A DNA stretch of 64,000 bases from Balanoglossus misakiensis (taxonomy: Eukaryota; Animalia; Hemichordata), in assembly GCA_040954595.2 (NCBI GenBank), contig CM082579.2, positions 7,305,625 through 7,369,624 on the forward strand, read 5' to 3'. The stretch's first letter is position 1, and the number at the start of each line of letters is the position of its first letter. A program made the position numbers and the translations under genes. Below, in pieces: positions 15,950 through 64,000 of this stretch. The notes under the pieces were generated by a model, which saw only the letters and a program-made list of their open reading frames with translations, did not search any database and had not been told where the DNA came from.

Positions 15950-15952
15950 CCA

Positions 15953-16293: not shown

Positions 16294-16326
<33 letters not shown>

Positions 16327-16490: not shown

Positions 16491-16549
<59 letters not shown>

Positions 16550-16950: not shown

Positions 16951-16987
<37 letters not shown>

Positions 16988-17537
16988 ACACACACACACA
17001 CCCACACCCACACACACACACACCCCACACACACACACACACCCACACACACACACACACACCCACACACCCACACACCCACACACACCCACACACCCAC
17101 CCACACACACACACACACACCCACCCACACACACACCCACACACCACACACACACCCACACCCACACCCACACACACACACCCACACACACACCCACACA
17201 CACACACCCACACCCACACACCCACACCCACACCCACACCCACACACCCACCCACACACACACACCCACACACACACACACACACACCCACACACACACA
17301 CACACACACACCCACACACACACACACCCACACACCCTCACCCACACACCCACACACACACACCCACACACACACACACCCACACACACACACACACCCA
17401 CACACCCACACCCCCCCCACACACACACACCCACACACCTACACACACACACACACCCACACACACCCACACACCCACACACACACACACCCACACACAC
17501 ACCCACACACACACACACACACCCACACCCACACACA

Positions 17538-17605
<68 letters not shown>

Positions 17606-17909
17606 ACACCCACACACACACCCACACACAAACACACACACACACACACACGCACACACACCCACACACCCACACACACACCCACACCCACACACCCACA
17701 CACCCACACCCACCCACACACACACCCACACACACACACCACACCCACACCCACACACCCACACACACACCCACACACACACCCACACCCACACACCCAC
17801 ACACACACACCCACACACCCACACCCACACACACCCACACACCCACACACACCCACCCACACACACACCCACACACACACACCCACACACCCACACACAC
17901 CCACCCACA

Positions 17910-17954
<45 letters not shown>

Positions 17955-18501
17955 ACACCCACACACACACACCCACACACACACACACACCCACACACCC
18001 ACACCCACACACACCCACACCCACACACACCCACACACCCACACACACACACCCACACACCCACACCCACACCCACACACCCACACCCACACACACACAC
18101 ACCCACACACACACCCACACACACACCCACACACACACACACCCACACACCCACACCCACACACACACACATACCCACACACACACACACACACACCCAC
18201 ACACCCACACCCACACACACACCCACACCCACACACACACACACACCCACACACACACCCACACACACACACACACACACACCCACCCACACACACACAC
18301 ACACACACCCACACACACACTCACACCCACACACCCACACTCACACACACACACACACACCCACACACACACCCGCACACACACACCCCCACACCCACAC
18401 CCACACACCCACACCCACACACCCACCCACACACACACACACACCCACACACACACACACACACACCCACACACACACACACACACCCACACACACCCCC
18501 C

Positions 18502-18538
<37 letters not shown>

Positions 18539-18795
18539 ACACACACACACACACCCACACACACACCCACACACACACACCCACACCGACACACACACAC
18601 ACACACCCACATACACACACACACACACACACACACCCCCCCACACACCCACACACCCACACACACACACACACCCACACACACACACCCACACACACAC
18701 ACACCCACACACACACCCACACACACACCCACACACACCCACACACCCACACACACACCCACACCCACACACACCCACACACACACACACACACC

Positions 18796-18826
<31 letters not shown>

Positions 18827-18945
18827 ACATACATACATACATACATACATACATACATACATACATACATACATACATACATACATACATACATACATAC
18901 ATACATACATACATACATACATACATAAATACATACATACATACA
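14776..18945. repeat. Compound microsatellite: (CATA)15 - ~4 kb irregular (CA)n/(CCCA) tract - (CATA)n
   Basis: CATA 14776-14835, CA/CCCA mosaic 14836-18819, CATA 18820-18945, read directly. Confidence 0.97.
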
Positions 18946-19113
18946 GATGTATACACGCTTTTGCGATTTTAAGACAATGCATATTTGCTCAGCAATTGCT
19001 CGATCACAATAACATTAGGCTATTCATTTGAGTACAAAGGGACTCACATCGTCATTCTAGATTAATTTTGTCACCTTAATATCCAGGAATTTCATTCTTC
19101 TTTTGTACATTAG

Positions 19114-28402: not shown

Positions 28403-38484
<10,082 letters not shown>

Positions 38485-42900: not shown

Positions 42901-45900
42901 GTCATCGACGGAGACTCTCTACAGGCTGTGTGAGTATAGGTACTCAAGAATGGATTTATACTTCGAAAAAGAAATATGTAGATGCTTACCTTTGCCCGTC
43001 GGCGGCCATCTTGGAACAAGGTGGTTATTAGCAATTTCCCAGAAATCTCTTCACTAGTTACAACTTCTGTCCCTGTATAAGTATGCGATGTTTTAATTTA
43101 AAAAAACTGCTTACCATCTATATACGAGTAAATAAGTTGATGTGATGCGTCTCAACTATCTGTAGATGCTCCCGAGATAGACGAGATCGCTGTGTTGTCA
43201 TGGAGCGCGGACGATGACGTAGAGGTGGAATGCGTTGCCACGGCCAGCCCACCAGATATCGCCTACTCGTGGCGGAGCGACGATGGTCAGACAGGGGGTG
43301 ACTCCAGGACATGGCAGCTGAGAGATACCGACCAGGACAACTTTGTGACCGTCACATGCAATGCCTCCAATACAGAAGGAACGACCTCACACACGCAGAC
43401 GCTGTATGGCAGAGGTGGGAAATAGAATTCATTATGTCTTGTCATACCATATATGTTGAAAAATTAAAAACAAACATAAATGCTGATATATCTCGTCCAT
43501 TTTCGAAGACATGTCAACAGCAGTGAATATGTTTATTGTTACAGTAATCAGCGTATCCAGTAAGCGTGGCATTTCAAAATTACCCAAATGGGGATTGAGT
43601 TATATTCTGGATAACAGAGCGTAACTATTTCAATTAGAAAGAATTCGTCTTGTTGATGAAATTTACTGAGTTCGTTTCCATCATCGATTTTTCAGCTGCC
43701 CCTGTGATCTACGAAATAGCTGAGTTGTCCTGGGGAGACGACCACATGGTGGAGGTCGAGTGCGTTGCTAAGGCGAGGCCTGATGACATTACCTATGCGT
43801 GGAGAAGTACGGGTCAGGCTGGGGGAAATACCCGGATATGGGACGTCGAAGATGTGGACCAAGATGGCGTGGTAACTGTGACCTGCGTGGCATCAAACGT
43901 TGAGGGCGTTAATTCGCTAACAGAGACGTTACATAAACATTGTAAGTGAATGTCGATAGCAATTGTCATATCATTGTGGGCTAAGCCGCTATTTCTTTCA
44001 ACGCGCATGGTGCACAGAGTGGCCTTCCAGAAGAAAAAATATAATAGAAATGTTATTATACATTTTCTCAGGATGGGATTTTGTTTTACGTACGTGTTCT
44101 TGTCCTGTTTATCGCAAGAGTTCCTAACAACTATGACTGGAAACAACGTGTACTGGTTAACTGCCTTTGGGTATGTCTTCATGTGAAATATATGACAGTA
44201 TACAAATATCACAATCTTTCACCAGATGCACCAGTAATTCAGGATATCACCCACAATTCCTGGACTAGTGATCACATGGTTGAAGTGGAATGCACCGCTA
44301 CAGCGTACCCAGCCAACATCACGTACGCCTGGACGAGCAGTGACGGCCAAACAGGAGAAGGCAAGACGTGGATCATGGAGGATGTGGACCAGAATGATCA
44401 GGTGACAGTCACGTGTGTGGCAGCCAATAGCGAAGGGAGTTCATCTCTGACGGAGACGTTACACAACCTGTGTGAGTACATGCGGCCGGTATATTCATGT
44501 ATGCAGATGGTGGTGGTGGTGGTCGTGGTGGTGGTGGTGAAAGCTATTAAAGTCATTTCTCTTCACTAAAACAAGCCTTAAGATTCTTTATGCGGATTTT
44601 GACCAACACGTTGTTTAGAATATCACATATAACTTCAATTAATTTTATATCGATAGACCCTCCAACAATTCACGAAATCGACGTGTTGTCCTGGGGAGAC
44701 GATCACATGGTTGAAGTGGAGTGCGTAGCAACGGCCAACCCTGACAACATCACGTACGCATGGAGGAGTGACTACCAGGTTGGCGGAAATACCCGGATAT
44801 GGATAGTTGAAGACGACGACCAAGACGGGGTGGTAACAGTGACTTGTAAGGCAACCAATCAGGAGGGAGAAGCTGTTGCCATGGAGACACTAAGTAAAGA
44901 GTGTAAGTATAAAAAGGGGTCAATGGCAAGGGATGCTTGGATTTATTCAAGGTATGACGTCATACCCATTGGTGACCTAAACGGATAAAAAAATCACAGT
45001 AATTAACGCTAATTGGAGGTCAGTTTTGTCAAAGACCTGCGTGGCAAGATAATTTTGTTGATCGTTTGAACATCAGTAGTGTCAAGGCAATCGTGGGCAT
45101 CCATAATGATAGCACCCCAGTGTATATATACGGTTGCTTGTAAAATATATTTGCAACGCATTTTTGTATGTGTGGTAATTTCATTGTTGTATATGTCGCT
45201 ACGTGATATAAGCTATAAGTCATCTCAATGTTGCACATTAAAACACATAGAAGTCTCCATACATGTTTGGCGAGTAGTCAACCCCGCATGCGCAATGTCA
45301 TAATATCTTTGAATCATCCGAAACAATGAATTGCGTCGCGTATCGCAAGTCAAAAAAGCAAAAGATTTAATAAAATGGTATAGATTATAGCAATGATCTG
45401 ATTTAAATGTGATTGCGCGAATGAAAGCGTTTGTATTTATTAGTTATTGGGAAATTAAACGTAATAGAAATCCGAATAGCTCAAATTGTAAGTCTACCGT
45501 GGTCTACCTTGTGTTCTGCAAAGTGCCGTGATGTTATAAAAGGCGCCCGCATTTCAGCAAGGACTTGGGTAAAAGCAACGGATATGTGCAGGTAAGCATT
45601 CATACGTCATATGTAGTGTTAAGACAAAACTGTAGTGAAATAGGAAACAAATGCACGTTTAATCGAAAAACGATTATTTCGACAGTAAACGAAGAAAAAA
45701 AGAGAAAGAAAAAACGACAGAAAGAAAGAGGCAACTTTCAAAGGCAAACGTAAAAAAACTTTTAGTTCAAGGCTAACTTGAGTGTGCATCCGCTTAACAA
45801 TCTATAGTATGTAAATGTATAGCATAACTTTATAAGTATTTCACTGTGTGTTATCACTGTTGCGAAGGTTAACTTAGGCGCCCTCCAAATGCCTGACCCC

Positions 45901-47105
45901 CCCCCCCTCCCTGCATAATTTGATGTGTACATGTTGTGTTCTTCAATGTTCTCAATAGAGATGTAATCCAGTGAATACATTATCTTGTATATCTCATAAT
46001 TAAGGATTGCAATGTTTTGTACTTTGCTTCCCACATGCACATGCAGCTCAGTTTCAGAATCTGTAAGCAAAGTTCAAACATAATATTGACAAGTATTGTT
46101 GTAAATTTTAAAGGTGTAACCGACGTTTTCTCTGGTAGATGCGTCTGCCATCGCGTTTGATCAATCTGTGAAGTACCCCACTCAGCTACCAACATTGTCC
46201 TGAGGAATGTGTGTTAAAGAAAATAAAACAACGTACATGGCCATGTTATCCCTCGATAGGTGTTAACTCATTTGACGATATGTCACTTTCATGACCCTTG
46301 AGGGGCCTTACATCATAGGTTATGTTTGGTATGAAAATATTACATCATTCAAAATTACATACAACATCGCCCTTTTATAACAGACAAAATATGGTCGACT
46401 GTTCCGGAGTTTAAACTCAAAGTGGGTACCAAAAATACACCAGATATAAAGGTCACATAGCGGTAATGAAAATTGCCTGAAGATTTCTTTTCTGAAATGT
46501 CTACATTTTGGCTTCTTGTTCTCCTTTCCAGATTTGATGTTGTAACGCCGCTGTCAGCTACTCATTGCCAAACAGTGTCGCTGCATCTCGTACCAGAGCT
46601 GCCAGTCTTCAGGAAAACAACACAGAAGCACTTATGAATCCACCACGGTCAACTGAGAAAAATTCGTGCTTTGTATACTCTGGGCTTCATAATATTATAC
46701 AATGATGAAGATTTGAATACTATTTTATTCTTATATCGCCTTTATGCGTTCAATTCCAATTTTCATTGCATCTTGTGCGTTTGTTGATTTTCTTGTGTTT
46801 TCCAATCTTCAAATCAACTCCTATGCCAAATTTTTGTTTTGTATTATTAATATAAAACACACACGCGGTAAGTTTGAATGGTAAATAAAAGTAGTACTGA
46901 ATCTTTGCACCACTAGAGACCGAAATAATTTACCTACCAGATGCGTGAGGGCCGAAACAGAATATTTCAAAGCTGCAGCTTATTACTAAATTCAAAAACC
47001 ACACCTCTCTATATTCTGCTTCCGACATCCAGGAATCTCACAAACCATATAGTTGGTATATATGTTTCCAGTGCGAACACAGGGAAAGAGGAATCTTGTT
47101 GTTGT

Positions 47106-47201
<96 letters not shown>

Positions 47202-48758
47202 CTGTGATGGCGACAATGATGATGATAATACATTTTAAAAATGTTTAATAATTCCATGCTGTTGTTTGTCAATGTTGTAAATAACTGTAAAAGATCACTA
47301 CAATCGTGACAAAAAACCCGTAGGTCGCCCAACGTCACTCCCGAATCGAGATGTCCCTGATCCTGGCTCATGGGCCACTTTTACCATTGTAGTTATGACT
47401 TTCAGAACATTCCCATACATTCGGTCTCATGATTTTTCAACAGATTCTCCCATCGTCGAGGACATCACTACGCTCTCGTGGATTGACAACTGGGCCAAGG
47501 TCGAGTGTCACGCCACGGCCAACCCCGAAAACATCACGTACTCCTGGGTGAGTGGCGGGAACCAGACCGGAAGTGGCAAGATTTGGTTTGTGGAGGACGT
47601 GGACGGGGTGGGATATGTGTCACTGACCTGCAGGGCGTCAAATCTCATTGGCTCTGATTACCTGATGACAACTCTCTACAATTCTGAAAACGAAATGTGT
47701 AAGTGTAACAGTGTCAGAAGCTATGTATTTTGGCAAACAATAAACAGTGGTGGTCGACCCGGGATCACTAGAAACAAAAGAACGCGCAATGGAATCAGAA
47801 TTAGATTTAATTAATTACCTGTTGCGTTTTAGATCATTCTGTAAACAATGACGCGCGCGATTTCCAGGTTTTACACACAGGTTTAGGGAGTTCGCATGGT
47901 GCGTCTATCCATGGAAACATCTGACATGGAATCAAATCACCCAAAAGAACGTTTTCCTGTTGTTAATGTTTCAGCGAGTGGCGTCAATTCGTCCCAAGTG
48001 CCTGTCAGCGCCCTCAGCATTACGACTTCGTTGGTGTTACTCATCCTCTTGTCAGTCTTCATTTTATTGTGGAGAAGGGCTGTCATAAAAAGGGTAAGTT
48101 GGACGCTCCTTTGATACAAAATTGGCATACCGACTGTGTTGTACACTCTATTCTAATTTATACAAAGCTTGACTTGTATAACAATGTACTTCGCTAGCAG
48201 CCCGTTGCTACGGTAATTATGCAAGACTCGCGCGAGATCTCGCAATTAGCGGAAAATCATCTATTACCAAACACGGCACATCAGTCATGTTATCTTTTGA
48301 CCTTTTTGTGTTTTTCACCCTGTCAACAGCGTGCAGCCACCACAAATCGTCGCCAGAGCATAGTAGACCAAGACATCGATTCTGATCGTAGACTGATGGA
48401 AGGCGATGACGTCAGTGACATGGCGCCCCCTGTACAGGTGAGAAATCGTTTTGTGACGCGATGGATTCTTTTGTGTTTATGTGACGTTTTTGAACGTCAA
48501 CGCGTCTGCATTTTCGAGTAATAATTGCGGTGTTGGCTAGACCTTGAATAGGTGAATTTTGAATACCCTATTTCAGGCCAAATTCCGGAAAACCCATGCA
48601 ACGGGCGAAACGCATACATACTGACAACATAGGAAGTACACCCCCGGGATGTTACCTGCATTACATCTAACTCCATTTCTTTTCTGTTTGTCTGTCTGTC
48701 CGTTCCACAGGTACGAAATCCAACTTATGACGCCGATGAAGTTCACAATCTTTACTAA
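39984..48758 (+). CDS. Ig-superfamily type I membrane protein (~832 aa): signal - V-set - C2-set - 6 short acidic Ig repeats - TM - cytoplasmic NPxY; nectin/CD22-like architecture
   Basis: 12 exons: 39984-40023, 40938-41309, 41744-42067, 42684-42929, 43166-43414, 43696-43941, 44226-44471, 44657-44902, 47444-47698, 47975-48093, 48330-48437, 48711-48758 (TAA); 2499 nt in frame. Signal MTTNTRRVVLIFYALHICLSDA; V-set C..W..EDGHYEC; GNPPATLMW; repeats VEVECxAxAxP..ITYAW..VTVTCxASN.EG; TM ITTSLVLLILLSVFILLW followed by RR; tail VRNPTYDADEVHNLY*. Exon 1 is the least certain. Confidence 0.88.
47107..47201. repeat. (GAT)n microsatellite, intronic
   Basis: About 31 units; source of the poly-D/H/S ORFs. 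Confidence 0.97.
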
Positions 48759-49442
48759 GGAGCCGCAAAAATTCCATAACGAATACTGAATAATGGCATT
48801 ATGTTAAATATGAACATAATAATATCATGCTACCATTCGCTATTCTGATTGGACGAGAGGTCAACCCAGCAATGTTACATTACTCAATAAAGCACAGCTA
48901 AAACTAGTTCCTCAACTAGTACTCAACAGGGAAAATGTGGGGTTAAACCAACGAATAGAGTAAAAAACACTTGAATTTATGGGCGTTTGGTTTTAGAACT
49001 GCTCTATGTGAATATTTGGCACTTTGCCATGCACAATGCCTGTCTTGTCACTGTTGGTCGCCTGCTACATGTTTAATGCTCGTTCCCGGGCGCTCGTATT
49101 TACATTCGTCGACGTGACTTTCGTTCAGTTCGTAACTTCTTTTTCTGACGCTGTTTGACACTGATATGACAGAAAATCAGTTTTTGATATAATCGCAAAA
49201 ACTCCTGTCGTAGTTGGGTATACCGTCTCGATTTGGGTACAATCCGCGCCATAATTATATAGCACTCGCCCAACGGCTTGTACCAAATCGCATGTGGGCC
49301 TATACCTGCCTGCGGCTTGGGTTACTGCTTAGTGTTTGTCAGTTACCAACACCAGTCACGAACTGATTGCTGAAAGCTAAAATAAATTTGAGAAACTCAA
49401 TTGTTTCTATACTAAGCGTTATTCACATTGCTCAAAAAACAC

Positions 49443-50198: not shown

Positions 50199-50260
50199 GA
50201 CCCCTCCACGCACCACAGTGGTAAATTTATAAAGTACTGCATATGCGAGCTGCTCCCACA
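50199..50260 (+). promoter_or_regulatory. Conserved upstream block of the secreted-protein genes, contains TATAAA
   Basis: GACCCCTCCACGCACCACAGTGGTAAATTTATAAAG..CTGCATATGCGAGCTGCTCCCACA recurs at ~52318, 55102, 57703, 58213 (diverged) and 62635, about 200-320 bp before the exon-1 ATG where a gene follows (57703 is an orphan). Confidence 0.5.
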
Positions 50261-50434
50261 AATTAATATGGATATCACGACCTCACGTAAAGAGTGTGTA
50301 CAGAAATAATTTGGTTGGCCTGATCATAATAGTTTACGTTTTACATGTATAAAAATATAGTTACCACGCACTTTGTTTCAAGAAAGCGAAGACAAAGCTT
50401 ACAGTGTACAGTCGTTCCCGATACGAACAATATC

Positions 50435-51869
50435 ATGGTAAGTGTATATTTTCAACATGTACGTACAGAAACATGACATTGATGAATATACGGATCAAGT
50501 TGTGCCTAAACAGGTTGTTATGTTTGACTTCACGATAACCGCCCTCTTCAAGATGACACTTTTTGTCGTGTGTGGATTGGATTATTAGTGTAAAGGGCAA
50601 ATGGACTTAAGTTACCATCTTGATTGCGGAACGTTTCTTGCTTGGTTTTCTATCTAGCTTAAAAGCACATGCAATACCAACATTAGTATTAATTCGTATA
50701 ATACACCCTTTCCAACATTTGGGAGACGAATGACAAGTACAGTTGTCTGTTTTCTATCTAGACACTTCCGCGATTGTTAGTCGCAGCAATAGCTGTGTTA
50801 CTCTCGGTGAATGCGAATGGGTTCCTGTTGAAAAGAGACGACAGCGTCAGTGGTGACAACCCTTGCGATAAGTGCAGGATGGACAAAAACGCTTTTGAGG
50901 GAGTGTCTTACTCAGACTGTGATGCATCGCACGAGTGTCCCTCGGATCTGGTGGACAGAGTGAATGCCGCTAAGGACGGGACTGCAGAGGAAATTACTCG
51001 GAGCTCGATTAGGGTCGCTATGAATTTCCCGAGTGGCGTCCACCATTATGTCGTTCTGTTAACTACCGATCACTCTGGAGATTTCGATCTGGTAAGTCAA
51101 GAGCTGTGTAAATCGTTCACTCTTCTAACCCTGATGGTCACGCAGTCTGGACTTCATATACACATACTGTTTTTGTAGGTACACGTTATGGAAGACAGGT
51201 CTGTACCAGAATTGCACCAATGTCCATGTCTCAAAACATATGCATTATACTAAAGGTGACGTTTTTTTGTCTAAATCATGCTCACAAGTCATGCTTAGTA
51301 TAAGATCCAAATTGGTAAAACCGTTTTCGCTAATCTTGCACCTCATGTTTGTTCCATTGAAAATAGGGTTCTGGAGAAGGAAGCGAGTTGATTTCCACCT
51401 GTCTAGATTGCGATGTGATCGAGTATGCCAACGGAATTGGTCAATGGCATTGCGTGGTATGTACATTTGGGACCATGCGTGTCTTCTCTCGTTTTTTTTT
51501 TCTGGACCGTTGGCCGAAACATATCCACGACAGCAACTGAATATCCTAGTACATGTAGGTCGTGGCGACCGCAGTGGGGTTTGCGCTGGTATGAGAGGAC
51601 ATATTCTCGTCAAGGGGGACACCCACGCAGCGCGACGACCGATTCCCTTTAACATAGTCTGTATGTGTATCATATTATGTGCCTGGTAAGTGAACTATTG
51701 TCTTGTTTTGTTTTATTTTCAGGAAGCAGAATGTCACGACGCATTCTCGGGATCCTTTTCCTGGAGGCCTTTCAAACCGGTTACCTCTTCCCTTTCTGAT
51801 GGCTACTGTTTCCAGGAGGTCCCTCGCTTTGGTGAAGTGTCCTTCTGGTGCGATTTCTATCTTGCCTAA
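50435..51869 (+). CDS. Secreted Cys-rich preproprotein, tandem family copy 1 (189 aa, 10 Cys)
   Basis: Exons 50435-50437 (ATG|gt), 50762-51091, 51367-51456, 51723-51869, all phase 0. MTLPRLLVAAIAVLLSVNANG-FLLKR-DDSV..CDKC..CDASHECPSDLV..|GSGEGSELISTCLDCDVIEYANGIGQWHCV|EAECHDAFSGSFSWRPFKP..GYCFQEVPRFGEVSFWCDFYLA*. AATAAA at 51977. Confidence 0.88.
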
Positions 51870-52545
51870 TTTTGACGTAAACACGGATGCTTGAAAATAA
51901 ACATGATTTCTGTCAATCGTCATTAAAGTTGCAAACTGTAACATGTTTCACTTAAATGTTCTCGAAATTAAGGCCCAATAAAAACAAAAGAAGTAGCTAT
52001 CTTTTGGCAAACATATCATTCGTGTGGAATATTTCTTTTTTATTTTCCCATAACGTAATCATACCATCGAGATCGAATTTTTAAAACCGTCATCCGGAAA
52101 AGGTCAGCTCAGTCCTATTATGGAAATGCAGATCTTCAGAGAAGAGTTCACCAGAAAATGTACTGAGATTCACAGGAATGTATACAAAACCACAATAAAA
52201 GCAAATATGTAGTACAAGTAATTTCAAACCTGTTTTTTTTACAATTACGCTTGAATTGTCAAATTGTTCTCCAACATAAATGCTGAGTCAAACAAAAGCC
52301 ATTAATATTAGAAAAATGACCCCTCCACGCACCACTTTGGTAAATTTTTAACGAGCTGCATATGCGAGCTGCTCCCACAGATGTTAAAATATGGTTCTAT
52401 CACGACCTCACATAAAGTCTGTACAAAAATAATTTGGTTGACCTGTTTAGAATTTTACATGACTAATAATAAAGATGCGACACATTTTGTTTCAAGAAAA
52501 CGACGACAAAGCTTACAGTGTGCAGTCGTTCCTGATACGAACAAT

Positions 52546-54664
52546 ATGGTAAGTGTTTATAGCCAGCAGAAACATGGAACATGTATTTAGATATTGATTA
52601 TGTACATGTACTTATGAAATTGAGTTCCAACGAGGTTATACTTTGACTTAAGGGCGATACTTTTTGTCATTTGTGGGTGGGGAAAATTGAACATAAATAA
52701 AGATCTGGATTGCAGAAAAAAATGGATGAAACGTTTCTTGTTTAGCATTCTACCTAGCTTGAACACAATGAAAACCAACATGAGTAAAAAGCCGATACTC
52801 ATACGCAAAATACACCCATTTCCACATGGGGAAGATGAGTGTAAAATTATGTGTTTTTATCTTAGACACTTGCATGGATGTCAGTCGCAGTGGTAGTTGT
52901 GTTGCTGCCGATGCATGCGAGCGGATTCCTGCTGAAACGAGAAGCTGACGTCAGAGATGAACAGTATTGTGATAAATGCAACATTGACGGTAACGGAGGC
53001 GATGGAGTGTATTACGTAGACTGTGACCAAACAAACCCGTGTCCTTCGGAACTGGTTGCCAAAATGACCGACGTTAAGAACGGGCTTGTGGAGGAAAGAA
53101 GTCAGAGCTCGTCGTTGATCGCTTTGAATTACAGGGGTGACACTGGCCATGTAGCCGTTCTATTATCTGACGAGCACTTCTCCGAAGACATCGATCTGGT
53201 AAGTCAACAGCTATATTTATACTTGACTCTGCGAACACTGATGGACGCAAAGTCTGGACTTTTGAAGATACACACATTTGAAGACACATCTGTACCAGAA
53301 TAGCACCAATGTCACTATGTCTCAACACTTAATTCATGTGACGTTTCTGCCTAGGGCCCTGGGGACGGAAATGATTTGATTTCCAGTTGTATACACTGCG
53401 ATGTGATAGACTATGAGAACGGAATTGGTCTTTGGAATTGTAAGGTATGTACCGTACATTTGGAACCTTGTTTGGCTATTGGTGTATTACCCATGCAGGG
53501 TAATACTAGTAAATGGGTGCTCTGGTCTGACAATATATCATGCTTGATGGTCACAGATAGTTGCGTGTGGTTGCTGCCACGTTCCCAAATGTTCACTACT
53601 TAACCGTACTCGTCACTGAGTCGATGCTCTCCTGGACCCCAATTAATGTTCTTATAGATGACCGATCTATTCACAGAGCTGGATTTTTACCTGCTTGACA
53701 CAGTGAGAAATTAGCAAAATCGAAATATTGTTACGACACGCTGGCCGTTCAGTTCCGAAACAGGGCAAATAGACTTACTGAATGGCTCGCTTTGGTGAAC
53801 CAACCAGCGCAGCACGCAACAAAGACGGTAAACAATAGGCACACCACACGTTATTTCCTTGCTTATGGAAACTTTTAATTACTACAACTAAACATTGGTA
53901 AATATAAAAAGATTGTACACTGGGAAGAAAGCACACAAAAATAAATGACTACCTTAAATGTGACCAGGTGTGGGAAATGAAAAACTAAAGTCCAAGCTAC
54001 CGCGAGCGCGACCAACACCACGGCAGTCCCAACAGCGACGTTCAGTCCGAGTAGCGTTCTGGCACAATTCCCCGGTAGACAGACGGCACGGCTTTCGGGC
54101 GAATTCCCCATGAGGTAGCACGACTTCTGGGCGCGGTTTCCAGACCAGGACAGCATGAAATACAGCACAGCTTCTGGGCGCGGTTTCCAGACCAGTGTAT
54201 CAGGAAATAAGGCACATCTTCCAAGCCGGCGAGGAACAGAACAGCTCACACGGGCAAGTCCAAATTAGTAGCTACGCCGCAACACAACGTGCGGGCTTTT
54301 TATATGGGGAAAATAATGAATGCACCACACCTGGTCACGCAAATATTCAAATTGCGAAAGTAAGCGAAAACACACCTGGTCACAAAACAACAGCTACGTA
54401 ACAATATGTAATATAAATATTCTGATCCAATTATCACAAATTATTGACAGGTCTGTATCTATATTCTATTATGTGCCTGAAGAGTGAACATTTGCCACGT
54501 TTTGTTTTGTCTTTCAGGAATCACAATGTCACGACGCATTCTCTGGTCCCTTTTCCTGGGTTCCTTTCAAACCACTGACCACTTCTTTTTCGGGTGGCAC
54601 TTGTCTGCAGGAAATCCCTCGCTTCGGTGTAGCGAACATCTACTGCAATTTCTTTATTGCATAA
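52546..54664 (+). CDS. Secreted Cys-rich preproprotein copy 2 (190 aa, 10 Cys)
   Basis: Exons 52546-52548, 52866-53198, 53355-53444, 54518-54664; intact frame; AATAAA at 54788. Confidence 0.88.
53729..54403 (-). mobile_element. Solo LTR (Gypsy-like, 675 bp) in intron 3 of copy 2
   Basis: Termini TGTTACG...CGTAACA (TG..CA, 7-bp inverted repeat) flanked by 4-bp target duplication ATAT (53725-53728 and 54404-54407); absent from intron 3 of copies 1, 3, 4, 5; internal direct repeats CTTCTGGGCGCGGTTTCCAGACCA x2. Strand assignment is tentative (TATA-like element on minus near 54296-54305). Confidence 0.8.
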
Positions 54665-54856
54665 TTTTGCCGAAAACACGGATGCGTGAAAGTAAACCTG
54701 ATTTCTGTCTCTCAATCACATTTAAAGTTGTCGATGTAAACAAGCTGTAGGCGTACCACCTTTCAACGAAATGTACTAGAAAATCAGAATAAAAAAATAT
54801 CTAATGGCAAATATTTTGTTATCAATATTTCCTTTCTACTTTCATATGATGGGTCT

Positions 54857-55080
54857 AACACAATCGGAACTATTTTGGGATAATTGCATACCGCTAAAAT
54901 GTGTACAAAACTATTTATATCGTTGTACTTGGGGGGAATGTGCTATTTCTGTCATTGTTTGAACAAAACAAAACAAAACAAAACAAAATGATAAATATGT
55001 ATGTAGGCTACATGCAGTGTGCTGAGAGTTTTACAGAGTTTATTACCATGCAATTATCCCAAAATAGTTCCAATCGTGTT
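54857..55080. mobile_element. MITE-like insert with ~33-bp inverted repeats
   Basis: AACACAATCGGAACTATTTTGGGATAATTGCAT (54857-54889) is the reverse complement, with 2 mismatches, of ATGCAATTATCCCAAAATAGTTCCAATCGTGTT (55048-55080). No clear target duplication. Confidence 0.55.
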
Positions 55081-55414
55081 CCATATAATATTTAGAAAAA
55101 TGACCCCTCCCCGCACCACAGGGGTAAATTTATAAAGAGCTGCATATGCGAGCAGCTCTCACAGGTGTCTAAATAGGACTCTATGACATATAGAGTCAGT
55201 ACAAAAATAATTTGGTCGATCTGATTATAATACGCTTCACAATGTATAAAAATACATTAACGACGCATTTTGTTTCAAGAAAACGAGGCCAAACTATTTC
55301 AACAGGGACTATTTTATCTCATTTACATATTGCCTGTGAAAAATACATGTACCACATATACACTTTGATCCAAGAAAACGAGGACAAAGCTTACAGTGTG
55401 CTGTCGTTCCTGAG

Positions 55415-56830
55415 ATGAATATTATGGTAAGTGAAAAATTTCACCTGAAACATAATGCATGTGTTCTTGTCAAATCAAATTGTGCCTAACCAGGTTGTTA
55501 TGTATGACTTTATGACAACTGTCATCTTCAGCATGATGCTTTTTTGTCGTTTGTGGGTGGGAATTATTAATATAGGGTATAATCGACTTAATCAAAATAC
55601 CATGGATTACAGGAAATTTGGGTGAACGTTTCTTGTATTGCTTTCTATCGATATTAAAACACGTGGAATACCAATCTTTTAGAGAAAGAACCTGATATTT
55701 AATACGAAATCGTCAAAGGAAACGAAATGGGTACGCATGGCACCCACATTCCAATATGGCGGACACGAATGTAAAGTTGTCTGTTTTCTATCTTAGACAC
55801 TTGCATGGATGCTAGTCGCGGCGATAGCTGTGTTACTGTCGATGCATTCCAGTGGCGCCCTGCTGAAAAGAGAACTTGGCGTCAATGAAGATCTCCCGTG
55901 TGATCAATGCAAGATTGACTATAATGGAGATGACGGAGTGTATTATATAGACTGTGATAAATCAACTACCCAGTGTTCATCGGAGATGGTGGCCAAAGTG
56001 AATGACGCTAAGAACGGGCTCGTACAGGAAACACATCGGATCTCGGCTTCGGTCGCTTTCGATTTCAAGGGTGACACTCACCATTTGGGCGTTATTTTAT
56101 TAGCTGGCCAGCACTTCTCTGAAGACGTCGATCTGGTAAGTCTGTCAGCTTTGAATCAGCAAAAACTGATGATCAAACTGTCTGGAATTCATCTATACAT
56201 ACTGTACACATTATGGAAGACAGTTCTGTACCAAAATATCACCAATGTCCATGTCTCAGCACATATCCATATTAAAGGTGGCGTTTCTGCCTGAATCATG
56301 TACATGTACACACATTTGTATAAAAAAGACATGCTCAGGATGAGATCCAAATTTGTAATAAAGTTAATCTCACCTTGTATTTCACGGTTCATTCTATTGA
56401 ATATAGGGTCCTGGGGACGGCAGTGCGTTGATTTCAAGCTGTCAACATTGCAATGCGATAGAGTACGCCAACGGAATTGTTCAATGGCACTGTAAGGTAT
56501 GTACATTTGGGACCATGTGTGGCTTCTCATGTTTTTTTTTCTTTGTTTGGACCGTTGGCCGAAACATATAGACAAGAGGTGATATCGGGCGAAGCAACAC
56601 AATATTGGCATGGCCTGTGTCTACATTACATAATGTTCCAGGAGAGTGGCAATTGTCTTGTTTTGTTTTATTTTCAGGAATCAGAATGTCACGACGCATT
56701 CTCGGGTCCCTTCTCTTGGGTTCCATTCAAACTGAATACCACTTCGATTCCTAGTGACGGCTGTCTCCAGGATATCCCACGTTTTGGTGAAGCGTACTTC
56801 TACTGCAGTTTCCCAAAGGCCTTCTTTTGA
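55415..56830 (+). CDS. Secreted Cys-rich preproprotein copy 3 (~197 aa, 10 Cys)
   Basis: Exons 55415-55426 (MNIM), 55797-56135, 56407-56496, 56678-56830; AATAAA at 56933. Confidence 0.88.
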
Positions 56831-57619
56831 CCCAACAAGGAGGCATGAGATCGTCTTTAAAGCCAATCGTCTTCAAAGGTGCCGATTTGAACAATCTGTA
56901 CCATGTCTCACTGAAATGTACTAGAAAACCACAATAAAGCAAAAGAAGAATTTCTCTCTCGGCAAATATTTTGTGTGCAATTGTTTTCTTTGTACTTTCC
57001 CATGATGTCACTACCACAGACATCGAATATTTGCAGAATTTCGTTTCAGAGATTGGAGATAGAACAGCAATATCCGAGAAAGTGAGCGAGATAAATTTTT
57101 ATCTGCCAGGGATTTACATGTCTCTGGCCGCCACTCTTTATTCCACAGTGTATAGTCTAATTTGGTTCTAAAGATGTCCACTAAATGTAGTTTTCTCGTG
57201 GTGTTATTGTTGATGGCTCGCCCGCATATATGAGCTCCTACTGTAAATGGATATATATGTTACCACGTGGTGTATTCGGGTGTCGCTCATCTTTTTGTAG
57301 TATATCACGAATTTTTATGGAGCACTGAAATTGTTTTCCTGAATACAATTATTGTGTGCCGCGCTCATCGTGCATAGACTGGCGCTACAGTTGTGTAGAC
57401 CAGTTGAATGAAAGTTGAATAGACTTTGAGTAATAATGTTCTCCATTTTCTTGGTAAAAACTACAAGACGTAAGAAATCGGGGAACTAAGTTATCCCATG
57501 ATACTTACAGGACCTTATGACAGCTAACTGTATACTTTGCATGAGAGTACGTTGTGAAATATCAATAGTAAAATGGATCGGATACGTAATATAGGCCTAT
57601 ATGTAGTTTCTAAACTACA

Positions 57620-57790
57620 TTTTACAATTACGCTTGAATTGCCAAATTGTTCTCCAACATTTAGGCTGAGTCAAAGGAAAGCCCATATAATATTAGAAAA
57701 ATGACCCCTCCACGCACCACAGGGGTAAATTTATTAAAGAGCTGCATATGTGAGCTGCTGTCACAGATGTTTAAATAGGACTCTATCGCA
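57620..57790 (+). other. Orphan duplicate of the family upstream block with no exons following it
   Basis: Matches 52238-52400 and 55080-55185 but stops before exon 1; a second upstream block follows at ~58130-58330. Confidence 0.65.
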
Positions 57791-58419
57791 AAGCAAGCAC
57801 ATATTTAAATTTGTTAAGTTATTTTGATGAAATGCAGGCATGTAAATTGTCATGCGCTCCTTTGGTTTCAAGGATCACAAAATAATTAAACTGTACTAAT
57901 ATTCACAGGAATGTATATGAAAATCATCATAAACCATGGAGTTTTATCCCGGGGTGGGTTTATCGAGGCAACTTGTATTTCAAACTTTATTATTTATACT
58001 GGTTGATTTCCTTTTTTAGTGATGCAGTAATTACTTTCTCGCGAATAATCGAACACCAAAATTATTTTCCTGAAATACACTCCAATTGTGTTTCCCGCGT
58101 TCATACAGGCCTACCAGTATTTACAAACCTGCTTTTTACAAAAACGCGTGAAATGACAAATTGTTCTCAAACATTAAGGCTGGGTCAAACAAAATCCTAC
58201 AATAGTACAACTGGTCCGTCCACGCGCCTCTGTAGTAAATTTATAAAGAGCAACATATGCAAGCTGCTCCTATATGTGTTTAAATATGGTTCTATCACGA
58301 CCTCACGTAAAGTCAGCACAAAAATAATTTGACCTGTTTACAATACGTTTTAAATGTCTAAACATACGACGCACTTTGTTTCAAGAAAGCGAGGCTTACA
58401 GTGTGCAGTCGTTCCTGAT

Positions 58420-59868
58420 ATGAACAATATGGTAAGTGTTTATGTTCAACAGAGACATAGGCCTAATACATGTATTTACACATCACTTCAAGACGATACT
58501 TTTTGTCGTGTGCTGATAGAGCATAATGCACGTCCATCTTCAACGTTTCTTGGTTACCCTTTTGCCTAACATGTATAACACATGTAAAACCAACACAAGA
58601 CCCTTTTCCGCACGGGGAAGATGAATGTAAACTTATCTGTTTTCTATCTAAGACACTTGCATGGATGCTAGTCGCAGTGGTAGCTGTGTTGCTGCCGATG
58701 CATGCGAGTGGCGCTCTGTTGAAAAGAGAAGTTGAACAGTATTGTGAAAAATGCGAGATTGGCGTTAATAGAGGCGATGGAGTGTATTACGCAGACTGTG
58801 ACAAAGCAAACACGTGTCCGTCGGAGTTGGTGGCCAAAGTGAATGATGTTAAGAACGGGCTTGTTGAGGAAAGAAATTGGCGCTCGGTTTCGTGCGCTGT
58901 GGATTTCAAGGGGGGCACTCACCACTTAGACGTTCTATTATCTGACCAGCACTTCTCCGAAGACATCGATCTGGTAAGTCAACAGCTATGTTTATACTTG
59001 ACTCTGCGAACAATGATGGACACGCAGTCCGGACTTTTGAAGATACACATATTTGAAGACACATCTGTACCAGAATAGCACCAATGTCAATATATATGTC
59101 TCATTAAGGTGACGTTTCTGCCTGAATCTTGCACACAAATTTGTAGATGAAAGATGTGCTCAGTATGACATTCAATTTCGTAGAGAAAGTTTTAGCAAAT
59201 ATTGTACCTCATTGTTTATTCTATTGGAATATACATAGGGCCCTGGGAATGGAAATGGCTTGATTTCCAGTTGTGTGCACTGCGATGGGATAGAGTATGC
59301 CAACGGAATTGGTCTTTGGAATTGTAAGGTATGTATATGAACCTTGTATGGCTTCTCGTGTGTTTTTTTCTGGACCATTGACCGAAACATATAGCTTGCA
59401 AGGTACATGGCATTTGTGCGGGGGGGGGGGGGGAATACACGTGTGCTTTGGCCTGACGTCAATATTGCAAATTTGATGGTCACATTTCGTTGCGTTTTTG
59501 CTGCAACGTTCTCAAATGGTCACTATACTGAGCACCCAGTTTGAAGTATGTAAACTCGAAATATTAATCTTCTGCCGTATTGGATGTTTAGACATTCGAT
59601 TGTGTTCACTTACTCAACACTCTCCAATTATCGCAAAAATATTGGCAGGTCTGTATCTATATTCTGTTATGTGCCTGGAGAGTGAACATTTGCCCTGTTT
59701 TGTTTTTGTTTGTTTTTTCAGGACTCACAATGTCACGACGCATTCTCGGGACCCTTTTCGTGGGTTCCATTCAAACCACTGACCAAATCCATTCATGATG
59801 GCTACTGTCTCGAGGATATCCCTCGCTTTGGTGAAGTGAACGTCTACTGCAATTTCTTTATTGCATAA
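58420..59868 (+). CDS. Secreted Cys-rich preproprotein copy 4 (~189 aa, 11 Cys)
   Basis: Exons 58420-58431 (MNNM), 58653-58973, 59239-59328, 59722-59868; extra Cys in SVSCAV; AATAAA at 59977. Confidence 0.88.
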
Positions 59869-60578
59869 TTTTGCATGAAAGTAAACATGATTTCTGTCTC
59901 TCAATCACCTTTAAAGTTGCCGATGTAAACAAGCTGTAGGCGTATCACGTTTCAGCGAAATGTACTAGAAAATCACAATAAAACAAAAAATTGGCAAATA
60001 GATAAATCATCATAAACCATATAGTTTTGTCCAGGCAACATGTGTTTCAACTTTATTATTTATACTGGTTGATTTACTGGTTGTAGTAATTACTTTCTCG
60101 CGAATAATCGAACACCAAAATTATTTCCTGAAATACACTCCAATTGTGTTTCCCGCGTTCATACAGGCCTACCAGTATTTATAAACCTGCTTTTTACAAT
60201 TTGAATTTGCATAAAGTGCAGTGAATAAACCTCTTTTTTTCTGAACATTACTGCATCTCCAACTGACAAGTTTGTATCGTTCCGATCTCAAATAGGTTGG
60301 AGAAAACTGATGATACGTGTGATGTATGATTGCATTTTTTTATAAGTATTATTCATAATATCGCATATGATTAAAAACAACTCGAAGATTTCTATTTTAA
60401 AACTATTTCAAGAGGGACTATTTTATCTCATTTACATATTGCCTGTGAAAAGTACCACATATATTTAGCCGGCAACACCAAGGTAGCCGGCAGTACATAT
60501 GCAATAACAAAGTTCCCACTGACACACTTTGATCCAAGAAAACGAGGACAAAGCTTACAGTGTGCTGTCGTTCCTGAT

Positions 60579-62090
60579 ATGAACAATATGGTAAGTGGGT
60601 ATTTTCAACAGAAACATAATATTTACTCATAAATTATGCGCGGATCAAATTGTGTCCTATAAGGGTTATTATACTTTGACTTCAAGATGATAATTTTGTC
60701 GTGTGTGGATATGATTATTAGAGCATATGGCACAATGGACCTAAACCTTCTGGACTGCAGAAAAATGAATGAAACTTTAATGGAGTACAAGAACTGATTT
60801 ACGAAACATAATACACCCTTTCCGGCAATATAAAGAAGACTAATATAACGTTGTCTGTTATCTATCTAGACACGTCCACGAATGCTTGTCACAGCAATAG
60901 TTGCGTTACTGTCGATGCATGCGAGTGGATTCCTGCTGAAAAGAGAAATTGACAACTTCTCTTGTGAAAAAGTTGAGAATGGCGTTAATGGAGTTGATGG
61001 AGTGTCTTACGCAGACTGTGATATAGTAAATTCGTGTCCTTCGGACCTGGTGGCCCAAGTGAATGACGTTAAGGACGGGCTTGTTGAGGAAAGCAAACGG
61101 ATCACGGCTTCGGTCGCTTTTGATTTCAAGGGTGACACTCACCATTTGGCCGTTATTTTATTAACTAGCGAGAACTTCTCTGAAGACGTCGATCTGGTAA
61201 GTCTACAGCTGTGCAAAAGTTTTGATTCTGCAAATACTGCACTGCTGCTCACACAAGCTTGACTTCATCTATACATAACGTACATGTGATGAAAAACTGG
61301 TCTGTACCGGAATACCACCAATTTGCATGGCTCAAATTCGTCATAAACGTTAAGCTCATTGTAAAGCTCACTGTTCATTCTATTCAATGTACTAGGGCCC
61401 TGGGGACGGAAGCAAGACGATTTCCGGCTGCCAAAACTGCGATGGGATAGAGTATGCCAACGGAATTATTCAATGGCATTGTAAGGTATGTACATTTGGG
61501 ACCATTCAATGCTATACTCATGTGGGTGTGTTTCTTTTCTGGACCGTTGGCCAAAACATACAGCTTGCAAAGTACATGGCATCCGGTACTGGGTAATAAA
61601 TGGATGCTCTGGCCTGAAAATATTACAAATGGATCGTCACAGATGGTTGCGTCTGTTGCTGCCACGTTGCTTCGATGCTTTCCTGGACCCCAATTAATGT
61701 TCTGATCGATGATCGATCTATTCACAGATCTGAATTGACCTGTTTGTCACATGGGAAATATGTAAAATGAAAATATTGAAAATCAAAATATAAATGTCCT
61801 GCCGTGATGGATGTTCAAACATTGTGTTCGCTTACTCAACGCTCGCCAATAAATCACATCGGCGTGGCCTGCATCCCTCCATATATATATATCATATTAT
61901 GTGCCTGGATAGTGACAATTGTTTTCTTTTGGTTTGTTTTCAGGAAGCAGAATGTCACGACGCATTCTCGGGTCCCTTCTCCTGGGTTCCGTTCAAACCA
62001 GTGACCAAATCCATTCACGATGGCTACTGTCTCGACAAATTCCCTCGCTTTGGCGAAGTGTTCTTCTACTGCAATTTCTTTATTTCCTAA
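60579..62090 (+). CDS. Secreted Cys-rich preproprotein copy 5 (~191 aa, 9 Cys)
   Basis: Exons 60579-60590, 60870-61196, 61396-61485, 61944-62090; CxxC changed to CEKV; AATAAA at 62208. Confidence 0.87.
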
Positions 62091-62859
62091 TTTTGACGAA
62101 AACACGGATGCACGAAACTATACACGATTCCTGTCAGCCAATCGTCTTCAAATGTGCCGATTTGAACAATCTGTACCATGTTTCACTGAAATGTACTAGA
62201 AAACCACAATAAAGCAAAATAGGAATTTCTCTCTCGGCAAATATTTTGTGTGCAATGTTTTCTTTGTACTTGCCCATGATGTAACTACAGACATCAAATA
62301 TTAAAATGTGACAATATTCACAGGCATGTATATATGAAATTCATCATAAACCATGTAGTTATATTCCGGGGTTTTATCTAGTAGGCAACTTATATTTCAA
62401 ATTTTATTACTTATACTGGTTGATTTCTTTTTTTAGTGATGCAGTAATTAATTTCTCGCGAATAATCGAACACCAAAATTATTTCCTGAAATACACTCCC
62501 ATTGTGTTTGCCGCGTTCATACAGGCCTACCAGTATGTACAAACCTGCTTTTTACAAAAACGCGTGAAATGACAAATTGCTCTCAAACATTAAGGCCAGG
62601 TCAACCAAAAGGCTTAGCCCACAATGGTACAACTGACCCGTCCACATACCGCTCTGGTAAATTTATAAAGAGCTGCATATGCGAGCCGTTCCCACAAATG
62701 ATTAAATATGGTTCTATCACGACCTCACGAAAAGAGTTTGTATAAAAATAATTTTGTTGACCTGGTTAAAATATGTTTTACATTTTTAATAATAACGTTC
62801 CGACGCACTTTGTTTCATAAAAGCGAAGACAAAGCTTACAGTGTACAGTCGTTCCCGAA

Positions 62860-63906
62860 ATGAACAATATGGTAAGTGTATACATGTATTTTCAACAGAC
62901 ATATAATACATATTTATCTTCACATCAAACAAGTTATGTTTGACTTTACGATAACCGTCATCCTCAAGGTGATACGTGTTGTCGTGTGTGGATGGGGATT
63001 ATTAGTGAAGGGCCACCTGGACTGCAGAAATGTCGATAGGACGTTTCTTGTTTCGCTTTCTGTCCAGCTTAAAACGTGAAATACCAATCTTTGAGTGTAA
63101 GAACTGATATTTAATACGAAACTGTCAAAGGGAGATGAATACGCGTAATAAACTGTTTCCAACATTGGTGAGATGAATGTAAAGTTGCCTGTCTTCTATC
63201 TAGACTCTTCCACGGTTGCTAGTCGCAGCAATAGCTGTGTTTCTGTCGACGCATGCCAGTGGCGCCCTGTTGAAAAGAGAAGTTGGCGTCAACGATGAAC
63301 AGTATTGTGATAAATGCAACATTGGCGTTAATGGTGATGATGACGGAGTGTTTTACCCAGACTGTGATACCCAAAGCCCGTGTCCCTCGGACCTGGTGGC
63401 CAAAGTGAACGATATTAAGGACGGGCTTGTAGAGGAAAGAAGTCGGAGCACGGCTACGGGAGTTGTGGATTTCAAGGGTGACACTCACCATGTAGCCGTT
63501 ATGATATCTGACCAGGTCCTCTCTGAGGACATCGATCTGGTAAGTCAACAGAACAGCTGTGCAAGTCATTGATTCTGCAAACACCGATGGTAACGCACTC
63601 TGGACTTCATATATACACAAGGAGATTTTAGGTATAGAAGACAGGTCTGTACCAGAATAGCACAAATGTCTCAACACATATTCATAATATAGGTGACGTT
63701 TTTTGTCTGAATCATGTACAATTTTTTTAGAACAAAGAAATGCTCAGTATGATCTAAATTCGTAAAACCAGTTTTAGCTAATCTTGTACCTCATTGTTTA
63801 TTCTATTGGAATATAGGGCCCCGGGGACGGAAATGAGTTGATTTCCGGTTGTCATCATTGCGATGTGATCGAGTATGCCAACGGAATTGGTCTTTGGCAT
63901 TGCAAG
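62860..63906 (+). CDS. Secreted Cys-rich preproprotein copy 6 (3'-partial; exon 4 beyond the window)
   Basis: Exons 62860-62871, 63204-63539, 63817-63906, homologous to copies 1-5. Confidence 0.86.
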
Positions 63907-64000
63907 GTATGTACATTTTGGGGCAGTTCGTGCGTGGCTTCTTATGTTTTTTTTCCACATAGGCCTATAGCTGGCAATGTACATTGAATCACGCGGGGGT

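What the first reader, a model, noticed from the sequence alone, without database searches (positions are those of the whole stretch)
50435..64000. Tandem array of at least six intact genes for an unrecognised secreted 10-Cys preproprotein family
Seen: six same-strand paralogues ~2-3 kb apart with the same all-phase-0 exon structure (exon 4 of copy 6 is off-window) and no stops or frameshifts. Each encodes a signal peptide, a 5-residue (F/A)LLKR propeptide ending in a dibasic site, and an acidic ~160-aa mature chain with the frame CxxC..YxDCD..C(P/S)S..|GxGxG..ISxCxxC..YxNGI..WxC|..CHDAFSGxFSWxPFK..C..PRFG..C.F. The N-terminal half (exon 2) is variable with indels while exons 3-4 are strongly conserved. 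Established: KR is a proprotein-convertase site, and tandem expansion of a fixed Cys scaffold with variable surfaces is typical of toxins, antimicrobial/immune effectors, pheromones and mucus proteins. Inference: a lineage-specific secreted effector family. I match it to no family I know. The ORF track shows only fragments, so it is easy to miss.
Basis: partly seen in the sequence, partly recalled or inferred. Interest (0 to 1): 0.8.

Follow-up and report, generated by a model that had tools for sequence, protein, structure and literature searches.

The report
Fast-evolving orphan secreted protein array
A marine invertebrate, likely an acorn worm, carries a row of at least six intact genes for a small cysteine-rich protein, predicted to be secreted, that matched nothing in our database searches; its core is conserved while a few loop positions change faster than chance, so it is likely a defence or recognition protein aimed at a changing target.

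Summary
Confirmed: six same-strand, four-exon paralogues (copy 6 cut by the window end), all introns GT-AG and phase 0, encoding 186-194-aa precursors with a hydrophobic leader, (F/A)LLKR and an acidic mature chain. Corrections: copy 4 has 11 and copy 5 has 9 cysteines, and the start codon is uncertain.

The genes are under selection. No stop survives (0 of 5000 neutral simulations) and 7 of 7 exon gaps are in frame. Exons 3-4 have dN/dS 0.49, and about 12% of sites are under positive selection (omega 3-4, p about 5e-4; 0.055 if all gap-flanking columns are dropped), mainly in loops between cysteines.

No relative was found in Pfam, NCBIfam, PDB or 1.84 billion protein representatives, but all remote searches were exon by exon and both folds failed (pLDDT 41-42). 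Ricin-B lectin, pacifastin, ApeC and ependymin membership were not met. The host (acorn worm) comes from unreviewed notes. No expression data were available.

Best reading: a lineage-restricted secreted binding protein in host defence at the mucus surface (0.4); a pheromone or gamete cue is the main rival. It is an undescribed family of a familiar kind.

The parts
50435..51869 (+). Copy 1: exons 50435-50437, 50762-51091, 51367-51456, 51723-51869; 189 aa, 10 Cys; most divergent copy
   Evidence: tree
52546..54664 (+). Copy 2: exons 52546-52548, 52866-53198, 53355-53444, 54518-54664; 190 aa, 10 Cys; long intron 3 (1073 nt)
55424..56830 (+). Copy 3: exons 55424-55426, 55797-56135, 56407-56496, 56678-56830; 194 aa, 10 Cys, one N-glycosylation sequon
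58429..59868 (+). Copy 4: exons 58429-58431, 58653-58973, 59239-59328, 59722-59868; 186 aa, 11 Cys (one extra in exon 2)
60588..62090 (+). Copy 5: exons 60588-60590, 60870-61196, 61396-61485, 61944-62090; 188 aa, 9 Cys (second Cys lost); distal upstream block replaced by other sequence
62869..63906 (+). Copy 6: exons 62869-62871, 63204-63539, 63817-63906; exon 4 beyond the window
52866..52940 (+). Predicted signal peptide (residues 1-21, A-x-G at -3/-1) and five-residue propeptide ending in KR (residues 22-26), shown for copy 2; same layout in 6 of 6
   Evidence: best 12-residue hydropathy 2.5-3.1; no 19-residue stretch above 0.85 in the mature chains; SignalP not available
53022..53042 (+). 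Hypervariable loop between Cys3 and Cys4 (shown for copy 2); holds 3 of the best-scoring positively selected columns
   Evidence: posterior 0.80-0.96
50200..50265 (+). Conserved distal upstream block with a CATATG E-box (50240, 52359, 55143, 58254, 62676 in copies 1-4 and 6); candidate secretory-cell enhancer (inferred)
50366..50437 (+). Proximal 63-72 nt block before intron 1, the most conserved part of the unit (mean p 0.12); 5' UTR or optional N-terminal extension, undecided
   Evidence: 6 synonymous and 13 non-synonymous changes, P = 0.30; a stop in copy 6
57620..57787 (+). Orphan duplicate of the distal upstream block (88% identical to that of copy 2 over 168 nt) with no exon behind it
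51977..51982 (+). AATAAA polyadenylation signal of copy 1; equivalents at 54788, 56933, 59977 and 62208

Best explanation
The array holds at least six intact paralogous genes for a predicted secreted, likely disulfide-bonded acidic protein of about 163 residues that likely acts as a defence or recognition molecule at the mucus-covered body surface, binding a changing foreign target through variable loops on a conserved core. Shown: intact genes, purifying selection on exons 3-4 and the leader, accelerated change at a minority of sites. Predicted: the leader is removed by signal peptidase after Gly21; a PC1/3- or PC2-type convertase then trims (F/A)LLKR in secretory granules. Inferred: the ten cysteines form five bonds, as two C-x2-C-x13/15-C-x4/6-C modules plus a C-x13-C hairpin. 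The invariant aromatic and Gly residues of exons 3-4 would form the core. The Cys3-Cys4 loop and neighbouring positions would form the binding face, each paralogue with a slightly different specificity for microbial, parasite or predator molecules (glycans or proteases are the likeliest classes). The array would grow and turn over by unequal crossing-over.
For: Intactness. Region omega: leader 0.48 (p 0.02), exon 3 0.45 (p 0.012), exon 4 0.50 (p 0.013), mature exon 2 1.24 (not different from 1). Site models (my own implementation): M1a vs M2a LRT 14.2, p 8e-4, 12% of sites at omega 3.3; M8a vs M8 p 1.2e-4. With only indel-bearing rows masked (51 of 1090 codons) LRT is 15.4, p 4.5e-4. 0 of 57 null simulations on mosaic trees reached the observed LRT. 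Top columns lie between or beside cysteines. There is no TM segment and no match to HExxH, CxxCH, DxDxDG or amidation patterns. CATATG is invariant in 6 of 6 aligned upstream blocks; DIMM and Mist1 bind CATATG (PMC4344488, passages). The hemichordate epidermis is highly secretory and mucus-rich (PMC13554239, passages). An orphan promoter duplicate and patchy best matches between units fit unequal crossing-over.
Against: No activity, ligand, structure or expression evidence exists. The selection signal drops to p = 0.055 when all columns within 3 of a gap are dropped (151 of 194 kept), and only one column passes posterior 0.95. Overall M0 omega is 0.80 and not distinct from 1 (p 0.065), so relaxed constraint explains much of exon 2. 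The chain is strongly acidic, unlike cationic antimicrobial peptides (established knowledge). Positive selection equally fits pheromones, gamete proteins and toxins. The repeat between the two four-Cys modules is not supported by profile alignment (probability 0.2-0.3%). Copies 4 and 5 have odd Cys counts. Invariant 6-mers also occur in intron 2 (3 overlapping ones), so the E-box may be chance. The host identity comes from unreviewed notes.
Confidence: 0.4

Rival explanations
1. Waterborne conspecific cue or gamete-recognition protein: the paralogues are released as a species-specific blend that signals identity, aggregation or spawning.
For: Genus-restricted clusters of secreted, convertase-processed proteins act as attractants in crown-of-thorns starfish: seven clustered genes, Acanthaster-only (PMC11957666, passages). 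No relative in other annotated acorn-worm proteomes and positive selection fit species-specific signalling.
Against: The attractins are cut into several peptides and the paper's main text has no occurrence of 'cysteine' or 'disulfide'. Here 5 of 6 copies have one dibasic site only. No expression data.
Confidence: 0.2
2. Canonical protease inhibitor: the hypervariable Cys3-Cys4 loop is the reactive-site loop, as in pacifastins, and paralogues block different proteases.
For: The selected sites cluster in a 5-6 residue loop between two Cys. Pacifastins carry a variable P1 between their last two Cys and come from signal-plus-dibasic precursors in clustered paralogues (PMC2689174, passages). The four-Cys module resembles a pacifastin lacking the Cys1-Cys4 pair (my inference).
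Against: The six-Cys pacifastin pattern matches 0 of 6 copies and Pfam gives no inhibitor hit. The loop is one residue longer and has invariant Asp where pacifastins have Thr. The conserved 80-residue C-terminal half is left unexplained.
Confidence: 0.12
3. Predator-deterrent or otherwise toxic mucus protein.
For: Signal peptide, short KR-ended propeptide, cysteine scaffold, tandem expansion and positive selection are common in marine toxins (established knowledge).
Against: No match to any Pfam or PDB toxin family. The chain is acidic and has no long hydrophobic stretch. The only enteropneust defence reference seen concerns bromophenols (a cited title in PMC4280546).
Confidence: 0.1
4. Structural or mineral-associated extracellular protein (mucus cross-linker, burrow lining, ossicle matrix).
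For: Acidic and secreted (D+E 15-18% in the five complete copies). Acorn worms have epidermal CaCO3 ossicles with no proteomic data (PMC9490348, passages). Unpaired Cys in copies 4 and 5 could cross-link.
Against: No low-complexity acidic tract and no DxDxDG loop. Positive selection is not expected of a purely structural role.
Confidence: 0.08
5. Highly divergent ricin-B/CBM13 beta-trefoil lectin whose repeats are no longer recognisable.
For: By eye: Cys-closed hairpins at about 44-residue spacing, a G-x-C-L motif in exon 4 and an N-G...W-x-C motif in exon 3. Five of 6 copies score above most of their shuffles against a CBM13 profile (8-73 of 500 shuffles reach the score).
Against: Scores are -1.5 to 1.8 bits against 77-118 bits for 8 held-out true domains; hhalign probability is 0.5%. 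QxW/F occurs in 2 of 6 copies, once each. Both models place a helix in exon 2 (low confidence). The motif was chosen after the fact.
Confidence: 0.05
6. Secreted enzyme using the invariant C-H-D of exon 4, or relaxed duplicates on the way to decay.
For: His-Asp is invariant in 5 of 5 exon-4 copies. Overall omega is high (0.61-0.80).
Against: No enzyme family hit and no metal motif. Decay is excluded by 0 of 5000 neutral simulations and significant purifying selection.
Confidence: 0.05

Closest known systems
Acanthaster attractins (PMC11957666, passages)
   Same: Genus-restricted cluster of about seven secreted paralogues with predicted convertase sites in an ambulacrarian
   Different: Cut into several peptides; no cysteine scaffold mentioned in the main text. 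Sequences were not compared, so this is an analogy only.
Pacifastin inhibitors (PF05375; PMC2689174 and PMC13388995, passages)
   Same: Signal peptide, dibasic processing, clustered paralogues, variable loop between two cysteines
   Different: The six-Cys pattern is absent in 6 of 6 copies; here four-Cys modules sit in one 163-residue chain
Short-form ApeC proteins (PMC9585378, passages)
   Same: Secreted, about 200 aa, Cys-rich, marine invertebrate pattern-recognition role; present in hemichordates
   Different: ApeC has eight Cys and three DXED motifs; here 9-11 Cys, no DxED or DExD, no Pfam hit
Ependymin-related proteins (PMC6280359, passages)
   Same: Secreted, about 200 aa, tandemly expanded in marine invertebrates
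   Different: 4-6 widely spaced conserved Cys; here ten in clustered modules; no Pfam hit
Ricin-B/CBM13 beta-trefoil lectins (PF00652)
   Same: Superficially similar Cys-closed hairpins at about 44-residue spacing
   Different: Profile scores at noise level, QxW repeats missing, predicted helix

Membership tests
Secreted preproprotein | N-terminal hydrophobic leader with small residues at -3/-1 and no TM segment | tested here: met
   6 of 6 by hydropathy and motif; no SignalP run
Secreted preproprotein | Dibasic convertase site after the leader | tested here: met
   KR at 25-26 in 6 of 6; no furin R-x-[KR]-R
Secreted preproprotein | Actual secretion and cleavage after KR | not testable with these tools
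   needs proteomics
Birth-and-death effector array | Tandem intact paralogues with purifying selection on a core and positive selection at some sites | tested here: met
   one of three alignment treatments gave only p = 0.055
Ricin-B/CBM13 lectin | Three QxW repeats and a profile match | tested here: not met
   (at most 1.8 bits for the whole-domain and 4.7 for the single-repeat profile, full-length mature chains)
Ricin-B/CBM13 lectin | Beta-trefoil fold | tested here: inconclusive
   only exon 2 was folded, pLDDT 41-42; no fold match
Pacifastin | C-x9-12-C-N-x-C-x-C-x2-3-G-x3-6-C-T-x3-C (first gap widened to 20) | tested here: not met
   0 of 6; pattern from PMC2689174
Pacifastin | Protease inhibition through the loop between the last two Cys | not testable with these tools
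   needs an assay
ApeC | Eight conserved Cys and three DXED motifs | tested here: not met
   0 DxED or DExD in 6 of 6; definition from PMC9585378
Ependymin-related proteins | 4-6 conserved Cys at the family's positions; Pfam match | tested here: not met
   Cys spacing against PMC6280359; no Pfam hit on exons
Any Pfam family spanning the exons | Whole-protein profile match | not testable with these tools
   the spliced chain could not be scanned remotely; only exon pieces of 30-113 aa were
Neuropeptide precursor | Several basic sites releasing short, often amidated peptides | tested here: not met
   one dibasic site in 5 of 6 copies, two in copy 5; no G-[KR][KR]

The most novel reading that the evidence does not exclude
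A new disulfide-rich fold, built from repeated cysteine-closed hairpins and born within one acorn-worm lineage, serves as a diversifying secreted recognition or inhibitor repertoire in mucus. It would be the first protein-based defence family described for hemichordates, with a natural variable-loop scaffold.
Probability: 0.2. Interest if true: 0.7.

Novelty: new member of a known kind. Interest (0 to 1): 0.42.

Why it matters
Acorn worms produce much mucus, yet my paper searches listed no study of their secreted defence or signalling proteins. This array gives a concrete, selected and testable candidate: predicted mature N-termini for proteomics, and named variable loops for binding assays. 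If the fold is new, it adds a disulfide scaffold with naturally variable loops. As a kind, a fast-evolving orphan secreted cluster is familiar in animal genomes, so without a function or structure it is a good lead, not a surprise.

Tried and rejected
Homologue searches. Exon-2 alignment: 0 of 6333 candidates (58-198 aa). Exon-4 alignment: 0 of 82. Exon-2 profile against 1.84 billion representatives: one hit at E 1.9e-4 over profile positions 41-66 only, a 723-aa Thr/Asp-rich repeat protein with 7 stretches, rejected as compositional. Exon 3 was not searched in these two protein collections.

Family and structure libraries. Pfam and NCBIfam: best E 0.1. PDB sequences: best E 0.17.

Contig scans. 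Metagenomes: 0 of 219 and 0 of 195 pattern matches confirmed. Prokaryote genomes: 3 of 36 passed tblastn within the candidate set, but they match little beyond the seed motif (10-12 bits) and were rejected.

Folding. AlphaFold of exon 2 failed twice (pLDDT 41.1 and 42.2), so the blank Foldseek and VIA-align searches carry no weight. The ESM Atlas was unavailable. No RNA holder was listed, and no whole genome is held.

Ricin-B test. One search had 5 of 20 rows read on the wrong strand and was discarded for this test. One search used 21 of the 30 fetched loci (those giving a stop-free stretch of 100 aa or more) and found no support.

Internal repeat: not supported. Coding status of the block upstream of intron 1: not supported (P = 0.30). 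Earlier scan notes on this family: none. The neighbour search for the host was not discriminating. The search on acorn-worm luminescence gave nothing usable (listing only). Supplementary files were not read; the marker tables of PMC13554239 could bear on expression.
Full report
1. Observation. The region 50435-64000 holds six same-strand genes. Each has a minimal exon 1 ending in ATG, an exon 2 of 321-339 nt, an exon 3 of 90 nt and an exon 4 of 147-153 nt; exon 4 of copy 6 is off-window. All 17 introns in view are GT-AG and phase 0. The five complete precursors are 186-194 aa and 51-75% identical. Residues 1-21 form a hydrophobic leader ending in A/S-x-G, residues 22-26 are (F/A)LLKR, and the mature chain is 160-168 aa with pI 4.2-4.6. 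Cysteine spacing in the ten-Cys copies is 2, 14, 5-6, 62-64, 2, 13, 4, 24, 13. Copy 5 lacks the second Cys and copy 4 has an eleventh. No other copy lies in the window.

2. The genes are functional by sequence criteria. None of 5000 neutral simulations kept six stop-free frames; the simulation used a full-length root for all six tips, slightly more than is visible for copy 6. All 7 internal exon gaps are in frame, against 17 of 59 in introns 1-2. AATAAA follows the stop at 103-124 nt in 5 of 5 copies. Counting estimates of dN/dS are 0.31 for exon 3, 0.54 for exon 4, 0.88 for mature exon 2 and 0.61 for five whole genes. Likelihood estimates are 0.45, 0.50, 1.24 and 0.80; exons 3-4 together differ from 1 (p = 6e-4), the whole gene does not (p = 0.065).

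3. Positive selection. M1a vs M2a gives p = 8e-4 and M8a vs M8 p = 1.2e-4. Masking only the indel-bearing rows gives p = 4.5e-4. None of 57 null simulations on exon-specific trees reached the observed statistic. Against this, dropping every column within three of a gap leaves p = 0.055; that treatment removes the Cys3-Cys4 loop itself. Only one column passes posterior 0.95. The best columns are in the N-terminal four-Cys module (43, 53, 57, 59, 61), just after Cys5 (128) and before Cys9 (167, 170).

4. Regulation and start. A distal upstream block is shared by copies 1-4 and 6 and by an orphan duplicate at 57620-57787 that has no exon behind it. CATATG is one of two invariant runs of six or more bases in it. 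DIMM and Mist1, regulators of secretory cells, bind CATATG (PMC4344488, passages). This is a weak hint, since intron 2 also holds an invariant run. The 63-72 nt before intron 1 are the best-conserved part of the unit (p 0.12). Copies 3-6 have an in-frame ATG 9 nt upstream. Copies 1, 2 and 4 have one 75-90 nt upstream that would add a basic N-terminal extension, but the block shows no coding signature (P = 0.30) and copy 6 has a stop in it. The start is therefore unsettled.

5. Host and neighbours. No genome is held. Unreviewed notes on other pieces of this assembly call the host an acorn worm. My own test is weak: a WSC-type exon of a neighbouring gene matches Lingula (67%), amphioxus (55-65%), Ptychodera (58-61%), Saccoglossus (60%) and Glandiceps (58-59%) about equally. 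That search does show that proteomes of three acorn worms are in the collection. Left of the array lie an Ig-superfamily receptor gene on the + strand, ending at about 48760, and an adhesion-GPCR-like gene on the - strand. Nothing links them to the array.

6. Relatives. None was found: proteins; families; PDB; contigs. The single hit is a compositional match. For sensitivity, each exon 2 scores 119-176 bits against a profile of the other five. Simulated relatives keeping all Cys plus 30% of other residues pass the estimated cut-off of 35 bits in 150 of 200 cases, and in 72 of 200 at 25% (no indels, so optimistic). Annotated relatives above about 35% identity in exon 2 are thus unlikely. More distant ones, and unannotated genomic copies, are not excluded. 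All remote searches used single exons, and the exhaustive profile search used the most variable one.

7. Structure. AlphaFold failed on exon 2 (pLDDT 41-42). Both models show a helix after Cys4 and a strand pair after it, at low confidence. Fold searches were blank and uninformative. The pattern C-x2-C-x13/15-C-x4/6-C occurs twice in 4 of 5 complete copies and a third C-x13-C closes the chain. This suggests repeated cysteine-closed hairpins, but profile alignment does not support the repeat. A ricin-B reading, recalled from motif likeness, was tested with 21 bacterial CBM13 domains against the full mature chains and failed.

8. Mechanism. Most likely (0.4) the proteins are secreted from gland cells, trimmed at KR by a PC1/3- or PC2-type convertase, and act as soluble binders in defence or recognition at the mucus surface, with paralogues differing in loop specificity. 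Shown: integrity and selection pattern. Predicted: secretion and trimming. Inferred: disulfide pairing, tissue and target. The hemichordate epidermis is highly secretory (PMC13554239, passages). Rivals are a conspecific or gamete cue (0.2; analogy PMC11957666, passages), a protease inhibitor (0.12; PMC2689174 and PMC13388995, passages), a deterrent toxin (0.1), a structural or mineral matrix protein (0.08; PMC9490348, passages), a divergent trefoil lectin (0.05) and an enzyme (0.05). Nothing tested here separates the first two.

9. Comparison and novelty. Membership of pacifastin, ApeC (PMC9585378, passages), ependymin-related (PMC6280359, passages), ricin-B and neuropeptide-precursor families was tested and not met. 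Ten paper searches (listings only, apart from the passages cited) showed no description of such a family; a word search cannot find an unnamed gene, and no supplements were read. PMC4280546 and PMC10662023 (passages) added nothing on acorn-worm proteins. Verdict: a real, selected, apparently undescribed family of a familiar kind, the fast-evolving orphan secreted cluster. Interest 0.42; 0.7 if it proves a new fold serving as a defence repertoire (probability about 0.2).

Noticed in passing
window 40919-48760 (+): Ig-superfamily type I receptor gene: one V-like exon, one C2-like exon, six similar acidic Ig exons (about 42685, 43167, 43695, 44225, 44657, 47443), a TM exon near 47975-48090 and a short tail ending with an NPxY-type and a second Tyr motif. 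It ends about 1.4 kb before the array.
   Followed up: partly
window 28500-38000 (-): Adhesion-GPCR-like gene: C-type lectin, WSC-type, two Sushi, EGF-Ca, hormone-binding-like, GAIN/GPS-like and 7TM-like exons (the GPS and 7TM labels are by eye).
   Followed up: partly
window 1-14663: 88-bp AT-rich satellite, 167 copies, 93% matches.
   Followed up: no
window 14779-18945: 4.1-kb degenerate AC-rich microsatellite tract that gives spurious long His-Thr-Pro and Cys-Val ORFs.
   Followed up: no
window 53700-54420: Extra sequence in intron 3 of copy 2 with a 47-bp tandem repeat (54117-54221) and, by eye, 13-bp inverted repeats near 53960 and 54327/54371; possibly a small mobile element.
   Followed up: no
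window 54857-54889 and 55048-55080: 33-nt inverted repeat pair (94% identical) between copies 2 and 3.
   Followed up: no
window 55291-55342 and 60400-60451: 52-nt segment, 98% identical, shared by the upstream regions of copies 3 and 5 only; suggests recent conversion or unequal exchange.
   Followed up: partly
window 19080-22860 (+): Several short exon-like ORFs of a further gene with no Pfam hit for the one tested.
   Followed up: no
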